A stretch of DNA of 64,000 nt. Origin: a virus. Positions within the stretch are counted from its first letter, which is position 1. The number at the start of each line of letters is the position of its first letter. Of the stretch, positions 18,001-39,000 are shown one piece after another. The position numbers are program-made. The DNA lies in IMG/VR virus record IMGVR_UViG_3300045988_184269. One strand, written 5' to 3'.

Positions 18001-21000
18001 GTCTTCCGGTGGCTATCCCGAAGGCTACGAACCTTCTGGCGGTGGTTCTCACGATGCCTCACACGATGCTGGCCCCGTGGAAACCGTAGGGTACGACTAT
18101 CCTGATACAGAGGTCGAGGAGGGCTCTACAAACGCTCCTGATGCCGTTGCGGATGATACCGCAGCCGCTACTCAGCCTGCCGTTGTGAGGCCGCAGGAGC
18201 GCCTGTCTTGGGCTACCATTGATGGTAAAGCTAAGACCGCACCCAGCAAGGGCGTTCGAGTCACCTTTGTTTTCGATGAACCTGAGATTCTCGGTGGAAA
18301 CGAGAATGAGGTCCGCCAGCGGCTCAATGAGGTCGTTCGCTCTGGAAACAAGGAGCTGCTGATGGCTCTGGCCGAAACGCTCTATGATGCCATGATTGGC
18401 GAGTAAATTCCTGCCTTAAATATAACCGAAAACAGAGTAAAGAAAGTGTGCAATGATTGCACACTTTCTTTTTTTGTGCAATGTTCAGAACGTATGTGCG
18501 CTTAGAATTGCGAAGACTAACGCAGCGCTGAAAATTTGCAGCTCCCAAGTAGTTGACAAAATATCGGATTTTGGTAGTGTAGAAAATGTAGACACTCGTC
18601 CGTCGTATCCGTTGTCCTGTAGCGACTTTGAGGGCAAAATACGGGCACGTGGACGAAAGAAATACTTTGCGAGAGGAGCTGGAAATTGTGAAGATTAGTC
18701 GTTTCAAGAAACTTCGCAGTATCGTTGCGATGCTGCTGGTGCTTGTGATGATGACCGGTACGCTCCCTACGTCTGCATTTGCTGCGGGGGAGGAGATTAC
18801 TGGTGTGGACGACATCGGCAATGAGATAATTGCTGATGTCGGTATGGTGGAAGGGGGTGATGGTGCATCGGCAGAAGATACAGTATCTATCGGAGTGCCT
18901 GACGAAAAAGGCGAAGGAAACACGGAAGATGCTGTCGGAAGTGGCGAGGAATCCTCTCAAGATGGCAGCGACAGTACAGCGGATGATAGTAAGTCTCCCG
19001 ATGAGGTGAAGGACAATAGTTCTCCAGACTCGGAATCCTCATTGGAAATATCTAACCCTGATGGTGAGAGTTTTGATGATGAAGAAGGTCTTTCGGACCC
19101 CTATGCCGGTGAAGATACTCCCGTGAGCGTTACGCCTTTGTATGGCTCGCCGCAAAACTCTTCTGGTCCGAGGAGGGCTCCCGCTCGCGCATCGGGAACT
19201 ATTACGACCGGCCTCGATATGGGTTATAACAGGAAGTGGATGGCCGAGTTTGCCCCCTATTCCAGTGCTGTTGAGAAATTCTTCAATGGACAGCCAGCTT
19301 ACTGTATTGAGCCTCACAAGGGCGCACCCGGCTCTGGCACCTCCGTCGATGCCAGCAGCTATTGGGGGGATGATAGAGTTCGCCTTGCGCTTGCCTATGG
19401 CTGGGGTGGCGCAGATGACTCGACGTTGCTCTGGTATGCTGGCAACGGCACCTATGCGTGGTGTGCTACGCAGGAGGTTATCTGGGAAATCGTTGGCGGC
19501 TACAGCGACCTGAGCGACCTGTTTGTGGGTCCCGGTCATGCTTATGACCCGGAGGTTGCTGAACCTATCAAGGCAGCACATGATTATATCTGGGAGAAGA
19601 TTAACCAGCAGGCAGAGATTCCGAGTTTTGCTGTCTACCGTCCCACAGATTTCAGAAAAGATATTGAACTTGCGTGGAATGGTTCAGTGTGGACAGCAAC
19701 TAAGTATGATTCAAACAGGGTTCTGCCGAATTTTGACAATTTCACATTTGGGTTGGCTGGTTTGTCGACGAGTAAGGTTGGATACAATCTGACAATAACA
19801 GCAACATCAGAAGCGGCAAAGAGTTTGCTGAATGGATATGCTTCATATGTGTCTTATGGTAACGTGATTGACCCCGACAGCATCAATGCTTACCTTCTCG
19901 TTGCGGGAGGAAGCAAGCAGCATTGTGTTGCTTTGAACGGTTGGCCTGACCCCGTTACTTGTTATGTGCGGGCGAAGGTGACGCAAACAACCGGTAATTT
20001 GGACATCACAAAGACGTCTGAAAATGGGAAAAACATTTCTAACGTCAGCTTTACTGTAACTGGGCCGAACGGATATAACCGGCTCTTTAAGACAAATGCA
20101 TCCGGCAAAATCAGCATTACAGACCTGCAGCCCGGAACTTACACGATTACAGAATCTTCGCCGTTAGGATACTACGCTGTGAATCGGGTTCAGACTGCGA
20201 CAGTTACGATTGGAGGCACGGCGAGTGTCTCCTTCCAGAACAAAGTGTCTCGGTGTACCGTGCAGGTAACGAAGACATCGGAAGATGGAGTTCTGCAAGG
20301 GTTCACTTTTACACTGACGGGAACATCTTACGCGGGAGATGCTGTAAATCTGTCTGCGACCACAGATGCGAACGGCAAGGCTACGTTCTCCAATGTCCCC
20401 TTGGGTTCCAACTATGTTCTTTCCGAGGTAAATACGCCCGGAAGATATGTAGCCCCTGTCAGCCAGACGTTCGCGCTTTCGACGCCTAATACGTCTGTAA
20501 GCAAAACATTCGAAAATAAATTGGCTCGCGGCAACGTGACTGTCACAAAGACCTCCGAAGATGGAAAAGTAAGCGGAGTTCAGTTTAATCTGAAGGGCAC
20601 ATCCACTTCCGGTCAGGCTGTAAATCTGACAGCTACCACCAATGCCAGCGGTGTAGCTACGTTCTCAAATGTGCTTATCGGTACATATACGCTGACCGAG
20701 GTAAATACTGGTAAACAGTATGCTCCTGTGTCCGCACAGAACGTCACTGTAAAGTATAACAACACCACACAGGCAACTGTCAGCAACAAGCTGGCACGCG
20801 GCTCCGTGCAGGTAACAAAGGCTTCCGAAGATGGTAAAATCGCCAACGTGCGTTTCCGCCTGCAGGGTACTTCCGTTGATGGTACTGCCGTTGACCTGTA
20901 CGCGACAACCAACGCCTCAGGTATTGCAACCTTCTCCAATGTTCTTATCGGAAGCTATACTGTGTCCGAGGTCAATACACCGGCATACTATCAGGTGGTC

Positions 21001-36000: not shown

Positions 36001-39000
36001 TGTTCACTCCTGAGCAGGCTACTGGCACTGTGGACGTGAAGTTCGTCTTCAATGCCACTGAGCTGGCCGGCAAGTCTCTGGTGGTATTCGAGCGTGTGTA
36101 TCTGGGCAACGAGATTGTTCCCGGTGACTCCGATAAGCCCGTGTTTGTGAGCCATGAGGACATCAACGATGAGGGCCAGACCGTTACCATCGGCGTTCCA
36201 GAAATCGGCACCAAGGCCGTGAACAACGCCACCAACGGCAAGACTCTTGACCCCGAAGCTCGCGCTGAAATCAAGGATACCGTGTCTTACTCCGGCCTGA
36301 TTGTCGGTGAGAAGTACACTGTCTCCGGTAAGCTGATGAACAAGGCCACCAACGAGCCTCTGAAGGATAAGGACGGTAAGGAAATTACCGCTTCCACCAC
36401 CTTCACCGCCGAGGCTTCCAAGGGCACCGTGGACGTCATCTTCGTCCTCGACGCTTCTCTGCTGCGTGGCGAGTCCATCGTCGTGTTCGAGTCCCTGCAG
36501 TACAAGGATATTGAAATCGCTGTCCACGCCGACATCAATGATGCTGACCAGACCGTGACCGTCAATAATCCCGAAATCAAGACCTCTGCCAAGAACGCTG
36601 CTGATGGCAAGAAGGAATTCTGGGCCTACAGCAAGGTTGAGCTGATTGATACCGTGTCCTACAAGGGCCTGATTGCTGGTAATAAGTATACCGTGACCGG
36701 CACTCTGATGGACAAAGCTACCGGCAAGCCCGTTCTGGGCCGCAACAACAAGGAAATCACCGCTACTACCGAATTTGAGGCTAAGTCTTCTGACGGTACT
36801 GTGGATGTGAGCTTCGTGTTCGATGCGTCCATTCTGGGCGGCAAGACACTGGTCGTGTTCGAGACTCTGACCCGCAATGGCACTACGGTCGCTACTCACA
36901 CCGACATCAACGATGTTGACCAGACCGTGACTATCAAGCGCATCCCGACCTATTCCGGTCCGAGCATCTCTACGACTGCCACCTTCGACGGCAAGGACAA
37001 GAAGAACTCCGTGGCTGGCAAGAACGTGAAAATCGTGGATACTGTCAACTACACCGGCCTGACCGTGGGTAAGACCTACGTGCTGGTTGGTACGCTGATG
37101 GATAAGGATACCGGCGTTGCCCTGAAGGACAACAACGGCAACCTGATTACCGCCTCCACCACCTTCACTCCCAAGTCCGCCAATGGCGCTGTGAACGTTA
37201 CGTTCAAGTTCGACGCATCCAAGCTGAAGGACCACGCCATCGTTGTGTTCGAGACACTGTACGAAGGCAAGGCCGAAGCCGGCAATGTCATTGCAACGCA
37301 CAACGACCTGATGGACGGCGCTCAGACGGTGTACTTCCGCGATAGCGTCCAGACCGGCGATGAAGGCATCGGCCTGTGGGCTATGCTGGGTACGTTCAGT
37401 GCCATCGCTTGCTGCGCTACGGCGATGTTCATGTTCCGTCGCAAGAAGGAGCAGTTCGCCGAGTAAGCATAACCCCGCCTGAGCATCACTCAAAAGTGAA
37501 TTCAGGGGCGCAGACCTTGTGCCTGCGCCCCTGTTTTTACAAAAATAAAAAGCAGGGGAGTGGACCTCCCCGGAAAGAGAGTAAAACTATGGATTTTCCT
37601 TATGGTGGGAATGGAAGCGATGTTATTGTCAATGGTGTTCAGTCTTTTCCTACTGACACATTGCTTGCATTGACTGGTGGACTCATTGTAGTGGCAATCA
37701 TTTTCTACCTTATTCTTTGCGTAGGTGCCGTATTTTCTATTATCGGTTTGGTACGCGGCATTAAGGCTAACAACAAGACTGTTATTATCCTCAGCAGCGT
37801 AGGTGTTGGCTGTTGTATTATCGGTGCCCTCGGAGTGCTTATGCCTATCTTCGCTATCGGAGGATTGGTCTGTGGGATTATTGCTTTTAAGAAAAGCAAT
37901 AATAGGGCTAAGGATGAAGCAAATCAGCCCAATTCAGACTTCCGGCGCAAAGAGGATGATGCCGAGTAGGTTTAGGCCGTATCCTTGCTTATTCGTAACT
38001 ACTAAAAAGAGAAGGTCTATAACGGGAGCATGAGCCTGTAAAAAGTGCTCATGCTCCTATTATAATTTTATAGAAAGGATGACTCTATATGCTTTTGTAT
38101 GTGCCAATCATGTTGCCATTTTTTACTTATGAGCAAATATGTTTAATTGCTGATTTGGCTACACCCATTGTTGCGATGATTTCGCTTGTTATTGCTTATT
38201 TCTCCTTAATAGAAACACGTAAGCAGATACGTGAAAGCACGGCAATTCAATATAAAAGAGATTTAGTAGGATTGTTACAATGTGTTCAGGATGCATCTTT
38301 TTGTATTGAGGAGTTTGTAGATGCTATTGGGTCATATACAGAAGGGCTCCTTGAATATCAGACATTAGTAAATATTTTTAATAATTATTGTTTCTTAGAC
38401 TTTGAAGATGACCCTTGGCTTATGAATACTGCGCTAAAACACAAAGTTGACTTATTGGAACAATATGAACTGATGGCAATGCCTTTGCTTAATCTGCAAG
38501 TAGGAACGAAAGATTCCTTAATTGTGGCTCGCTTTATAAGTGCATATCGTTTGTTCATAATTTCTGCATGGGATGATATACGTACAACAACGGCGCTCAA
38601 GAATATTAAGGGTAATTGTTGTACGGGTAATATTGTGCTCTTTCCTATTGGTCACTGTAATGCCGCAAAACCTGAATTATACAAAGAAATGCAAAGAATG
38701 AATAGCGTTTTGATTTCCACTGGAATAACTGACAAAATAAGAAAACGGTTATATGAAAAAGAAACGTGTGGAAATTTTCCTTTTAATGGGGTAAAATAAA
38801 AAGAACGACGTAAAGCAAAAGGAGTGTAGACGGAAATGGCAATGGATGCAGATTACACCCTCGTAAAAAAGTGGCGCAACTGGTTCGACCGGAAATACGG
38901 TGACGGTTATGGACCGGCAAACCTATTGCAGCGGAGGACTATGAATACTGCGGTCGTCACTGTGAGTACATTGCAAAATATTCCGTTCTCGGAGTTGTCA

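What the first reader, a model, noticed from the sequence alone, without database searches (positions are those of the whole stretch)
18688..37466. Two paralogous giant TIE (thioester-isopeptide-ester) adhesins with SrtB-type sorting signals on a conjugative element
Both proteins begin with a thioester domain carrying the Cys (YCIEP) and TQxxIW Gln signatures. They then hold CnaB-like repeats and long arrays of Ig-like repeats ending HxDxxDxxQ. I count about 18 in the 3,789-aa protein and about 5 in the second. That matches the intramolecular Thr-Gln ester-bond domains described for Clostridium perfringens Cpe0147. The C-terminal motifs SPKTGD and VQTGD, and APQTGD in the VWA adhesin, are of the (S/P)PxTG class used by clostridial sortase B. 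No sortase gene lies in the window. The N-terminal domains are about 80% identical while the repeat arrays differ in length, so the genes duplicated recently and the repeats then expanded. Covalent host-binding adhesins on a conjugative element may act in mating-pair or host attachment, as aggregation substance does.
Basis: partly seen in the sequence, partly recalled or inferred. Interest (0 to 1): 0.55.

Follow-up and report, generated by a model that had tools for sequence, protein, structure and literature searches.

The report
Two giant covalent adhesins on plasmid
Two very long surface proteins on a roughly 120-kb conjugative element from uncultured gut Clostridia are ordinary, if large, members of the known TIE family of self-cross-linking adhesins; they are old paralogues that keep the same reactive tip on stalks of very different length.

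Summary
Gene A (18688-30054, 3,788 aa) and gene B (31836-37466, 1,876 aa) each encode a signal peptide, an acidic linker and a thioester domain (TED). [quoted passage not shown] All 23 ester repeats keep the six Cpe0147 catalytic residues. A repeat model (pLDDT 95.7) matches only solved ester-bond domains. The TED is class II. Its profile hits only SaTIE, BaTIE and EfmTIE86, and its Cys and Gln align with the SaTIE thioester pair.

Three parts of the interpretation fail.
- The bond-forming Gln is a C-terminal one (Q411/Q397), not the Gln of TQxxIW.
- The duplication is old. Synonymous sites are saturated, so the 81% TED identity reflects purifying selection.
- The repeats are 31-58% identical and show no length polymorphism, so they did not expand recently.

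Only SPKTG strictly fits the C. difficile SrtB motif. The window has no sortase.

The conjugative context holds. Related Oscillospirales elements place a TED adhesin beside the same T4SS/ParAB backbone. A mating-pair role is plausible but already published for pLS20. Verdict: a new member of a known kind, of modest interest.

The parts
18688..30054 (+). Gene A: 3,788-aa TIE adhesin. Signal peptide, acidic linker, class II TED, 8 short + 3 large SpaA/CnaB-type domains, 18 TQ ester domains, SPKTGD sorting signal.
19096..19989 (+). Gene A thioester domain (aa 137-434). Cys206 codon at 19303-19305. Candidate bond-forming Gln411 codon at 19918-19920. TQEVIW at aa 261-266.
   Evidence: Pfam TED 29.5 bits against cut-off 22; invariant Cys and Gln in distant relatives; alignment to SaTIE Cys296/Gln467
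19993..23112 (+). Gene A isopeptide-type stalk: 8 repeats of about 92 aa (aa 436-1162), each keeping Lys...Glu...Asn triad positions, then 3 larger SpaA-type domains (aa 1163-1475).
   Evidence: Pfam SpaA x11; repeat dissection
23113..29919 (+). Gene A array of 18 Thr-Gln ester domains (aa 1476-3744), 122-133 aa each.
29920..30054 (+). Gene A cell-wall sorting signal: SPKTGD, hydrophobic segment, KRKKNK, stop.
30402..31583 (+). Intervening 393-aa lipoprotein (lipobox LVAC, K/D/T-rich linker, weak PG_binding_1 match) with its own promoter-like and terminator-like sites. Function unknown.
31836..37466 (+). Gene B: 1,876-aa paralogous TIE adhesin. Signal peptide, acidic linker, class II TED, 5 short SpaA/CnaB-type domains plus a segment homologous to A's three large ones (Pfam counts 7 SpaA in all), 5 TQ ester domains, SVQTGD sorting signal.
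32193..33095 (+). Gene B thioester domain (aa 120-420). Cys192 codon at 32409-32411. Candidate bond-forming Gln397 codon at 33024-33026.
35400..37325 (+). Gene B array of 5 Thr-Gln ester domains (aa 1189-1830). Repeat 3 (36180-36566) was modelled.
37326..37466 (+). Gene B sorting signal: SVQTGD, hydrophobic segment, RRKKEQFAE, stop.
13010..15934 (+). Third adhesin: VWA + GBS104-like Ig domain, five repeats of about 85 aa, APQTGD sorting signal.
16365..18406 (+). parA (16365-17153) and parB (17138-18406), immediately upstream of gene A. The same ParA-ParB-TED adhesin order is found in related elements.
571..5921 (-). Conjugation genes inside the window: CHAP + lysozyme cell-wall hydrolase (571-1947), 407-aa and 744-aa proteins without family hits, and a TrbC/VirB2-like protein (5541-5921, weak match). 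A VirD4-type coupling protein and a VirB4-like ATPase follow just left of the window.

Best explanation
Genes A and B encode two sortase-anchored fibrillar adhesins of the TIE (thioester-isopeptide-ester) family.

Each protein is exported by a Sec signal peptide and attached to peptidoglycan through a C-terminal xxxTG sorting signal by a sortase encoded elsewhere.

The stalk is a string of Ig-like domains. There are 11 or 7 SpaA/CnaB-type domains with a Lys-Glu-Asn isopeptide triad. There are then 18 or 5 domains that autocatalytically join a first-strand Thr to a last-strand Gln by an ester bond, using a His/Asp pair and two buried acids as in Cpe0147. This gives a protease- and force-resistant rod of about 29 versus about 12-13 domains.

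At the tip sits a class II thioester domain. Its Cys (A C206, B C192) and Gln (A Q411, B Q397) form a reactive thioester, which is attacked by an amine on the target to give a covalent link.

The two genes are old paralogues. Selection has held the warhead nearly constant while the stalks diverged, so the same target is probably engaged at two different reaches.

Homologous TED adhesins sit beside the same T4SS/ParAB backbone in related Clostridia plasmids and ICEs. The most likely job is therefore donor-recipient attachment (mating-pair formation) for this roughly 120-kb conjugative element, as shown for TIEpLS20. Attachment to host or mucus is the main alternative.

Shown here: architecture, residue conservation, the fold of the ester domain, class II TED affinity, age of the duplication, and genomic context.
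Inferred: actual bond formation, the anchoring enzyme, the target, and the role in conjugation.
For: - Domain content.
- Ester machinery: T11, D33, H116, D121 and Q124 are invariant and E104 is present in 22/23 repeats. These map onto Cpe0147 T450/D480/H572/D577/Q580/E547.
- Ester-domain fold: AlphaFold model of one repeat has pLDDT 95.7. The top 18 Foldseek PDB hits are all ester-bond adhesin domains.
- TED: the Cys is invariant and a single C-terminal Gln is nearly invariant across relatives down to 23% identity. Cys-Gln spacing is 205 residues. The profile hits only the class II structures 6FX6 (E = 3.7e-16), 6FWV and 6FWY, with the Cys and Gln aligned to SaTIE chain residues 47 and 218, i.e. 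Cys296 and Gln467.
- Isopeptide triad: conserved in 13/13 short repeats.
- Sorting signals.
- Old paralogy with a constrained warhead.
- Conjugative context: T4CP, VirB4-like ATPase, CHAP hydrolase, TopB, RepL and ParAB.
- Conserved linkage of TED adhesins to this backbone in Vescimonas, Monoglobus and Subdoligranulum elements.
- Functional precedent: TIEpLS20.
Against: - No chemistry was measured.
- The TED structure prediction failed (pLDDT 41), so the Cys-Gln geometry rests on sequence alignment.
- The adhesin genes lie about 17 kb from the T4SS genes, next to parAB rather than inside a conjugation operon.
- tblastn of the TED against plasmids returned only four Clostridia records and no pLS20-type plasmid, so there is no detectable sequence relationship to TIEpLS20 at that sensitivity.
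- No sortase was seen in about 81 kb of the element.
- SVQTG is not a proven sortase substrate motif.
- TIE proteins are classically host adhesins.
Confidence: 0.6

Rival explanations
1. The proteins are cargo colonisation factors. The element gives its bacterial host covalent adhesion to the gut mucosa, dietary particles or host proteins (as SfbI does with fibrinogen). They have no role in DNA transfer.
For: Characterised TEDs mostly bind host proteins. The genes sit with a third, VWA-type adhesin typical of host-binding tip pilins. They are outside the T4SS gene block. All copies come from metagenomes, and the nearest plasmid relatives are from human gut isolates.
Against: TED adhesins are linked to the same ParAB/T4SS backbone in three other elements at only 28-36% TED identity. 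That is more typical of backbone genes than of cargo. A class II TED adhesin is experimentally required for conjugation in pLS20.
Confidence: 0.3
2. They act in bacterial cell-cell aggregation or biofilm formation in general, not specifically in mating. This benefits plasmid spread only indirectly. The long and short forms give layered intercellular spacing.
For: Two stalk lengths carry an almost identical warhead. Aggregation phenotypes are known for plasmid adhesins such as PrgB.
Against: No direct evidence. There is no domain similarity to PrgB or antigen I/II-type aggregation proteins in Pfam.
Confidence: 0.08
3. One or both genes are decaying duplicates without function.
For: Very long repetitive genes are costly. 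One public scaffold shows gene A split in two.
Against: Both ORFs are intact. dN is well below dS, with strong constraint on the TED. All catalytic residues are kept in 23/23 repeats. The split is a scaffold N-gap artefact. Other copies are 100% identical.
Confidence: 0.02

Closest known systems
Cpe0147 / CpTIE of Clostridium perfringens (PDB 4NI6, 4MKM)
   Same: An N-terminal TED followed by a tandem array of Ig-like domains with the Thr-Gln ester bond and the same six catalytic residues. Sortase-anchored single-polypeptide stalk.
   Different: Cpe0147 has a class I TED and 11 highly similar ester repeats. Here the TED is class II and SpaA/CnaB domains precede the ester array. There are 18 or 5 ester repeats, which are only 31-58% identical. 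The genes are on a conjugative element.
SaTIE of Staphylococcus aureus (TED structure 6FX6)
   Same: Class II TED + isopeptide domains + ester domains in one sortase-anchored protein. It is the best solved match to this TED (E = 3.7e-16), with Cys and Gln aligned.
   Different: SaTIE has only four isopeptide and two ester domains. It was not detected by single-sequence phmmer of the whole protein; only profiles found it.
TIEpLS20 (pLS20 gene 34, Bacillus subtilis)
   Same: A class II TED + Cna-type stalk adhesin encoded by a Gram-positive conjugative plasmid. The thioester Cys is needed for efficient conjugation in liquid.
   Different: TIEpLS20 is 778 aa, lies inside the conjugation operon, has no ester domains and no sorting signal, and is sortase-independent. 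No sequence similarity was detectable by tblastn.
Mobiluncus mulieris giant adhesin (7,651 aa; PDB 5U5O/5U6F)
   Same: A giant TIE protein with a SaTIE-like TED and dozens of ester and isopeptide Ig-like domains. Top Foldseek hit for the repeat model.
   Different: Actinobacterial. Described as part of the bacterial proteome, with no mobile-element context mentioned. Ester and isopeptide domains are interleaved, and the N-terminal region is much longer.
TED-tipped pilus locus of Vescimonas fastidiosa plasmid pMM35_02, and TED + 10 x SpaA adhesins of Monoglobus/Subdoligranulum ICE-like elements
   Same: The closest annotated relatives of this TED (28-36% identity). They lie next to the same backbone: CD1115-type VirD4, VirB4-like, DUF5697, DUF6100, S1-domain protein, ParA/ParB. 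The Monoglobus and Subdoligranulum proteins end in xPKTGD anchors.
   Different: No ester domains were found in the one scanned (L012), and both the Monoglobus and Subdoligranulum proteins end in a SpaA-type domain. Vescimonas puts the TED on a 443-aa tip-pilin-like protein with a major pilin and two class C sortases. Each locus examined contains only one TED gene, whereas this window has two.

Membership tests
TIE proteins (thioester-isopeptide-ester surface adhesins) | N-terminal Sec signal peptide | tested here: met
   Read directly from the sequence: a basic n-region, a hydrophobic core, then AFA|A (A) and VYA|A (B). No signal-peptide predictor was available.
TIE proteins (thioester-isopeptide-ester surface adhesins) | Thioester domain with a bond-forming Cys in [YFL]C-hydrophobic-hydrophilic and a bond-forming Gln, plus TQxx(hydrophobic)W | tested here: met
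   YCIE and TQEVIW are present. PF08341 scores above its gathering cut-off in both proteins. The Cys is invariant and the C-terminal Gln is conserved in at least 90% of 21 relatives down to 23% identity. Both align to SaTIE Cys296/Gln467.
TIE proteins (thioester-isopeptide-ester surface adhesins) | Cys and Gln side chains adjacent in the fold; thioester actually formed | tested here: inconclusive
Bond formation needs mass spectrometry.
TIE proteins (thioester-isopeptide-ester surface adhesins) | CnaB/SpaA-type isopeptide domains with a Lys / Glu(Asp) / Asn(Asp) triad | tested here: met
   PF17802 x11 and x7. K...E...N positions are conserved in all 13 short repeats. Sequence-level only.
Thr-Gln ester-bond domain (Pfam TQ PF18202 / NCBIfam VaFE_rpt NF033903; Cpe0147 type) | Nucleophile Thr on the first strand, Gln on the last strand, His base, Asp acid, and two buried acids (Cpe0147 T450, Q580, H572, D577, D480, E547) | tested here: met
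   T11, Q124, H116, D121 and D33 are invariant in 23/23 repeats. E104 is present in 22/23, with Asp in the other. Register confirmed against 4MKM and PMC12679949.
Thr-Gln ester-bond domain (Pfam TQ PF18202 / NCBIfam VaFE_rpt NF033903; Cpe0147 type) | Ig-like fold of solved ester-bond domains | tested here: met
   Model pLDDT 95.7. Foldseek ranks 1-18 are all ester-bond adhesin domains, with TM about 0.7.
Class II thioester domain (BaTIE, SaTIE, EfmTIE86, TIEpLS20) | A beta-sandwich of about 75 residues inserted before the Gln-bearing strand, giving a long Cys-Gln spacing | tested here: met
   Spacing is 205 residues, against 204 in EfmTIE86, 188 in TIEpLS20 and 171 in SaTIE. The profile matches only the three class II structures, including the insert region of SaTIE. 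The slipknot topology itself was not testable.
Substrates of Clostridioides difficile-type SrtB | (S/P)PxTG motif 17-45 residues from the C-terminus, then a hydrophobic segment and at least 2 basic residues | tested here: inconclusive
   Gene A's SPKTGD fits exactly. Gene B's SVQTGD does not (Val at position 2); it resembles NVQTG, which SrtB failed to cleave in vitro. The VWA adhesin's APQTGD deviates at position 1.
Substrates of Clostridioides difficile-type SrtB | A cognate class B-like housekeeping sortase in the same cell | not testable with these tools
   No sortase in the window or in 17 kb of flanks. About 40 kb of the element and the host chromosome are unseen. No isolate genome carries the element.
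Conjugation (mating-pair) adhesins such as TIEpLS20 or PrgB | Encoded by a conjugative element and required for efficient transfer | tested here: inconclusive
   The element encodes a T4CP, a VirB4-like ATPase, a hydrolase and a VirB2-like protein. Relatives show a conserved adhesin-backbone linkage. A requirement for transfer cannot be tested in silico. There is no homology to PrgB domains.

The most novel reading that the evidence does not exclude
A family of conjugative plasmids and ICEs of gut Clostridia (CD1115-type VirD4, DUF5697, DUF6100, ParAB) carries a class II thioester 'warhead' as a core mating-pair module. The way the warhead is presented has been re-engineered repeatedly: on a sortase-C-polymerised pilus (Vescimonas), on a SpaA stalk of about 1,400 aa (Monoglobus, Subdoligranulum), or, here, on two ester-bonded giant stalks of about 29 and about 12-13 domains. 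The two stalks act as a two-stage system: long-range capture, then short-range docking of recipients by covalent bonding to a bacterial surface molecule.
Probability: 0.25. Interest if true: 0.55.

Novelty: new member of a known kind. Interest (0 to 1): 0.3.

Why it matters
If the conjugation role holds, these genes would extend the single experimental case (pLS20) of thioester-mediated mating-pair formation to the abundant, mostly uncultured Clostridia of the human gut. In those bacteria, what sets conjugation host range is poorly known.

The pair also offers a natural experiment: the same warhead, held by strong purifying selection, on stalks that differ about 2.3-fold in domain number.

The 23 diverged but catalytically complete ester domains are a ready panel of orthogonal self-ligating modules for protein engineering.

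Otherwise this is a correct annotation of known families.

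Tried and rejected
- **TED structure prediction.** I replaced it with a deeper profile against PDB sequences.
- **Annotated plasmids.** Megablast of the flanks against PLSDB found nothing except a tRNA-sized patch.
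- **Isolate genomes.** Two scans of 185,579 species-representative genomes, one with the TED alignment and one with the coupling protein, found no relatives. The host remains unidentified; Oscillospirales is inferred only from the nearest plasmid relatives.
- **Walking the contig for a sortase.** This stopped after 10 kb on the left and 7.4 kb on the right, because only window-encoded proteins may be looked up. One lookup failed because of a different start codon.
- **Recent duplication or gene conversion of the TED.** Rejected because synonymous sites are saturated.
- **Repeat-number polymorphism.** Rejected for the available copies. The apparent split of gene A is a scaffold gap.
- **Single-sequence PDB search with the first TED alignment.** It gave only a marginal SaTIE hit (E = 0.0024) plus noise such as BPTI.

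Full report
**Observation**

The two ORFs are real.
- Gene A opens as an ORF at 18628, but the start used by independent gene callers is GTG 18688 (MKISRFKK...). This gives 3,788 aa ending at 30054.
- Gene B runs from 31836 to 37466 (1,876 aa).
- Pfam finds a thioester domain (PF08341, above the curated cut-off in both), 11 and 7 SpaA prealbumin-fold domains, and 18 and 5 T-Q ester domains (PF18202, E = 0 and 1.7e-149).
- NCBIfam's 'VaFE repeat-containing surface-anchored protein' model also matches 18 and 5 times.
- A regular-expression count gives 18 and 5 HxDxxDxxQ motifs at a period of 122-134 residues, and one YCIEP and one TQEVIW per protein.
- Both C-termini are canonical sorting signals: SPKTGD or SVQTGD, then a hydrophobic span and a basic tail. 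The VWA adhesin at 13010-15934 ends in APQTGD and the same layout.

**Ester domains**

I cut out all 23 repeats and aligned them.
- Thr11, Asp33, Phe75, His116, Asp121 and Gln124 are invariant.
- Glu104 is present in 22 of 23 repeats, with Asp in the other.
- The published Cpe0147 machinery is T450 (nucleophile), H572 (base), D577 (acid) and Q580 (electrophile), plus the buried acids D480 and E547 (PMC12679949).
- A profile of the 23 repeats aligns to both domains of 4MKM in exactly this register: DT..., VVFE..., HxDxxDxxQT.
- An AlphaFold model of repeat B3, using the 23 repeats as its alignment, has mean pLDDT 95.7.
- Its 18 best Foldseek matches in the PDB are all solved intramolecular-ester-bond adhesin domains: M. 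mulieris, Suipraoptans, Gemella, Cpe0147 and others, with TM about 0.7.

**Thioester domain**

According to Miller et al. (PMC6194298), that Gln and Trp only hydrogen-bond to the Cys backbone and are dispensable. The bond-forming Gln lies in a weak hydrophobic-Q-hydrophilic-hydrophobic-hydrophobic motif near the C-terminus of the domain.

- My structure prediction of the TED failed (pLDDT 41 with a shallow alignment), so I used comparative sequence evidence instead.
- tblastn found four distant relatives (28-36% identity) on plasmid records of Vescimonas, Monoglobus and Subdoligranulum.
- Aligned with A and B, they share the YC(I/M)EP Cys, ATQxx(I/V)WE and one single C-terminal Gln (KQDCV, FQSCA, IQDVV, MQDVV, KQDFA).
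- That Gln is A Q411 / B Q397, 205 residues after the Cys in both proteins. This matches class II spacing: EfmTIE86 204, TIEpLS20 188, SaTIE 171.
- An exhaustive HMMER search gave 197 representatives at E <= 1e-3.
- In a 21-sequence alignment down to 23% identity, the Cys is invariant and this Gln is conserved in at least 90%. The TQ Gln is less conserved.
- The profile of that alignment hits exactly three PDB sequences, all class II TEDs: SaTIE-TED 6FX6 (E = 3.7e-16), BaTIE 6FWV (2.6e-5) and EfmTIE86-TED 6FWY (1.2e-4).
- In the SaTIE alignment the Cys falls on chain residue 47 and the Gln on chain residue 218. With the construct offset these are Cys296 and Gln467, the crystallographic thioester pair.

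The TED is therefore class II, unlike the class I TED of Cpe0147/CpTIE.

**Isopeptide stalk**

Between the TED and the ester array lie 8 (A) or 5 (B) repeats of about 92 residues. Each has Lys in the first strand (VTKTSEDG), Glu in L-x-E-V and Asn in the last strand (V-x-N-K-L), which are the CnaB-type triad positions. Three larger SpaA-type domains follow in A, and a homologous segment follows in B. This is sequence-level evidence only.

**Age of the paralogues and of the repeats**

- Nei-Gojobori counting gives pS = 0.72 (saturated) and dN = 0.14 there. The structured stalk domains have pS 0.59-0.68 and dN 0.32-0.50. The two unstructured ends, the signal peptide plus linker and the sorting signal, are more diverged still (pS 0.74 and 0.65, dN 0.61 and 1.12).
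- The warhead is therefore conserved by purifying selection on an old duplicate. Recent duplication and gene conversion are both excluded.
- Diverged A-like and B-like N-termini (74-82% identity) occur in other metagenomes, which fits long coexistence.
- The ester repeats are only 31-58% identical to one another. The first and last repeats of A and B are each other's best or near-best matches (58% and 52%), so the arrays share ends. The internal repeats of A show a weak period-2/4 pattern (A4-A8-A12-A14; A11-A13-A15), suggesting ancient block duplications.
- Two other assemblies are 100% identical to the window across all of gene B and the 8.2 kb of gene A that they cover (21836-30054, most of the ester array).
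- The one apparently split gene A is a scaffold junction with an N-run.

There is thus no sign of recent expansion or of length polymorphism.

**Sorting signals and sortase**

- The window has no sortase. A relaxed TLxTC scan hit no ORF that matches a called gene or has sortase-like family hits. No Pfam sortase hit was found in any called gene. None was found in 10 kb to the left or 7.4 kb to the right.
- C. difficile SrtB cleaves SPKTG, PPKTG, SPSTG and SPQTG. It does not cleave LPXTG or the NVQTG of CbpA in vitro (PMC4155245).
- Gene A's SPKTGD is identical to several C. difficile substrates. Gene B's SVQTGD resembles the uncleaved NVQTGD. APQTGD departs at position 1.
- The Monoglobus and Subdoligranulum relatives end in TPKTGD and IPKTGD. 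xPKTGD therefore looks like the housekeeping motif in these Clostridia, but the sortase class cannot be assigned from the motif alone.

**Context**

- The window carries two RepL-like genes, a VWA adhesin, ParA, ParB, gene A, a lipoprotein, gene B, topoisomerase III, a CHAP + lysozyme hydrolase, a primase-like protein and a TrbC/VirB2-like protein.
- Just left of the window lie a 917-aa VirD4-type coupling protein, an S1-domain protein, a VirB4/TraC-like ATPase, DUF5697 and DUF6100.
- Independent assemblies give contigs of 115.6, 117.4, 120.7 and 122.1 kb that break at different places. This suggests a replicon of about 120 kb.
- The element is absent from PLSDB at the DNA level and from 185,579 species-representative genomes.

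**The same backbone in relatives**

- Vescimonas fastidiosa pMM35_02: a TED-bearing 443-aa pilin-like protein, a SpaH/EbpB major pilin and two class C sortases follow directly after VirD4 and the S1 protein.
- A Monoglobus ICE-like block: ParA, ParB, a small ORF, then a 1,416-aa TED + SpaA adhesin.
- A Subdoligranulum ICE with a large serine recombinase: VirD4, VirB4-like ATPase and hydrolase on one strand. ParA, ParB, a small ORF and a TED + 10 x SpaA adhesin lie on the other.

No ester domain was found in the relative scanned with Pfam (L012). The Monoglobus and Subdoligranulum proteins both end in a SpaA-type domain.

The TED adhesin thus looks like a conserved accessory of this family of conjugative elements. 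The features particular to this window are the duplication and the added ester arrays.

**Mechanism and comparison**

Structurally these are textbook TIE proteins.

This has been shown for TIEpLS20, a class II TED adhesin whose Cys68 is needed for efficient conjugation in liquid. That paper's authors also noted homologues in other Gram-positive conjugation operons (PMC8092201).

The present proteins differ from TIEpLS20 in several ways.
- They are sortase-type substrates.
- They are far longer.
- They contain ester domains.
- They lie next to parAB rather than inside the T4SS operon.

Giant TIE proteins are also known; the M. mulieris adhesin has 7,651 aa and 51 domains (PMC10619420).

My estimates:
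- About 0.9 that these are functional TIE adhesins.
- About 0.45 that their main role is donor-recipient attachment.
- About 0.3 that it is host or particle adhesion.

**Verdict**

It is wrong on the bond-forming Gln, on the age of the duplication and repeats, and too specific on the sortase. This is a new member of a known kind. The modest points of interest are a rare TED subtype (5 representatives at E <= 1e-30 among 1.84 billion), the same warhead on two stalk lengths, and a conserved link to a gut-Clostridia conjugation backbone.

Noticed in passing
window 8211, 12698, 12947, 15940, 16306, 18446, 52370 (each 19 bp): Seven perfect copies of the palindrome GTGTGCAAT[C/G]ATTGCACAC (0 expected by chance), all intergenic. 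They flank the RepL genes, the VWA adhesin, parA and parB. One lies about 220 bp upstream of gene A. At least two copies (16306 and 18446), with their flanking A/T runs, also score as terminator-like hairpins, the 18446 copy on both strands. They may be parS or KorB-like ParB operator sites that tie adhesin expression to partition.
   Followed up: partly
window 52026-52113 (+): A tRNA-Ser (anticodon UGA) is carried by the element. It is the only stretch with DNA similarity to PLSDB records (a Pusillibacter plasmid, 86%).
   Followed up: partly
window 13010-15934 (+): The VWA / GBS104-like tip-pilin-type adhesin carries five repeats of about 85 aa (HEYYTNGxxDG...LRYDR) with no Pfam match. It also has a KPEDKPED proline-rich spacer before APQTGD.
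   Followed up: no
window 18787-19095 and 31926-32192 (+): [quoted passage not shown] The four distant plasmid relatives lack it; their TED follows the signal peptide directly. Its function is unexplained.
   Followed up: no
window 30402-31583 (+): A 393-aa lipoprotein sits between the two giant genes (lipobox LVAC, K/D/T-rich linker, weak peptidoglycan-binding motif, cysteine-containing C-terminal domain). It has its own promoter-like and terminator-like sites.
   Followed up: partly
window 38001-40400: A low-GC patch (0.425 against about 0.51) right after gene B holds two ORFs (236 and 505 aa) with no Pfam hits. This may be a recent insertion or cargo.
   Followed up: no
window 56145-63835 (-): A cluster of an HD-domain protein, a Fic protein, a VWA/CobT-like protein, DUF3232 and a weak AAA_5 ATPase. 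It may be a MoxR/VWA-type or defence-like module on the element.
   Followed up: no
L010 (Vescimonas fastidiosa pMM35_02) 19941-24610: A TED-bearing pilin-like protein, a SpaH/EbpB major pilin and two class C sortases lie directly downstream of the VirD4 and S1-domain genes. This looks like a sortase-assembled pilus inside a conjugation gene block.
   Followed up: partly
window 23113-29919: Repeat lengths and similarities in gene A alternate (124/127-aa types; A4-A8-A12-A14 and A11-A13-A15 group together). This suggests ancient duplication of two- or four-repeat blocks. Neighbouring repeats are never more than 50% identical.
   Followed up: partly
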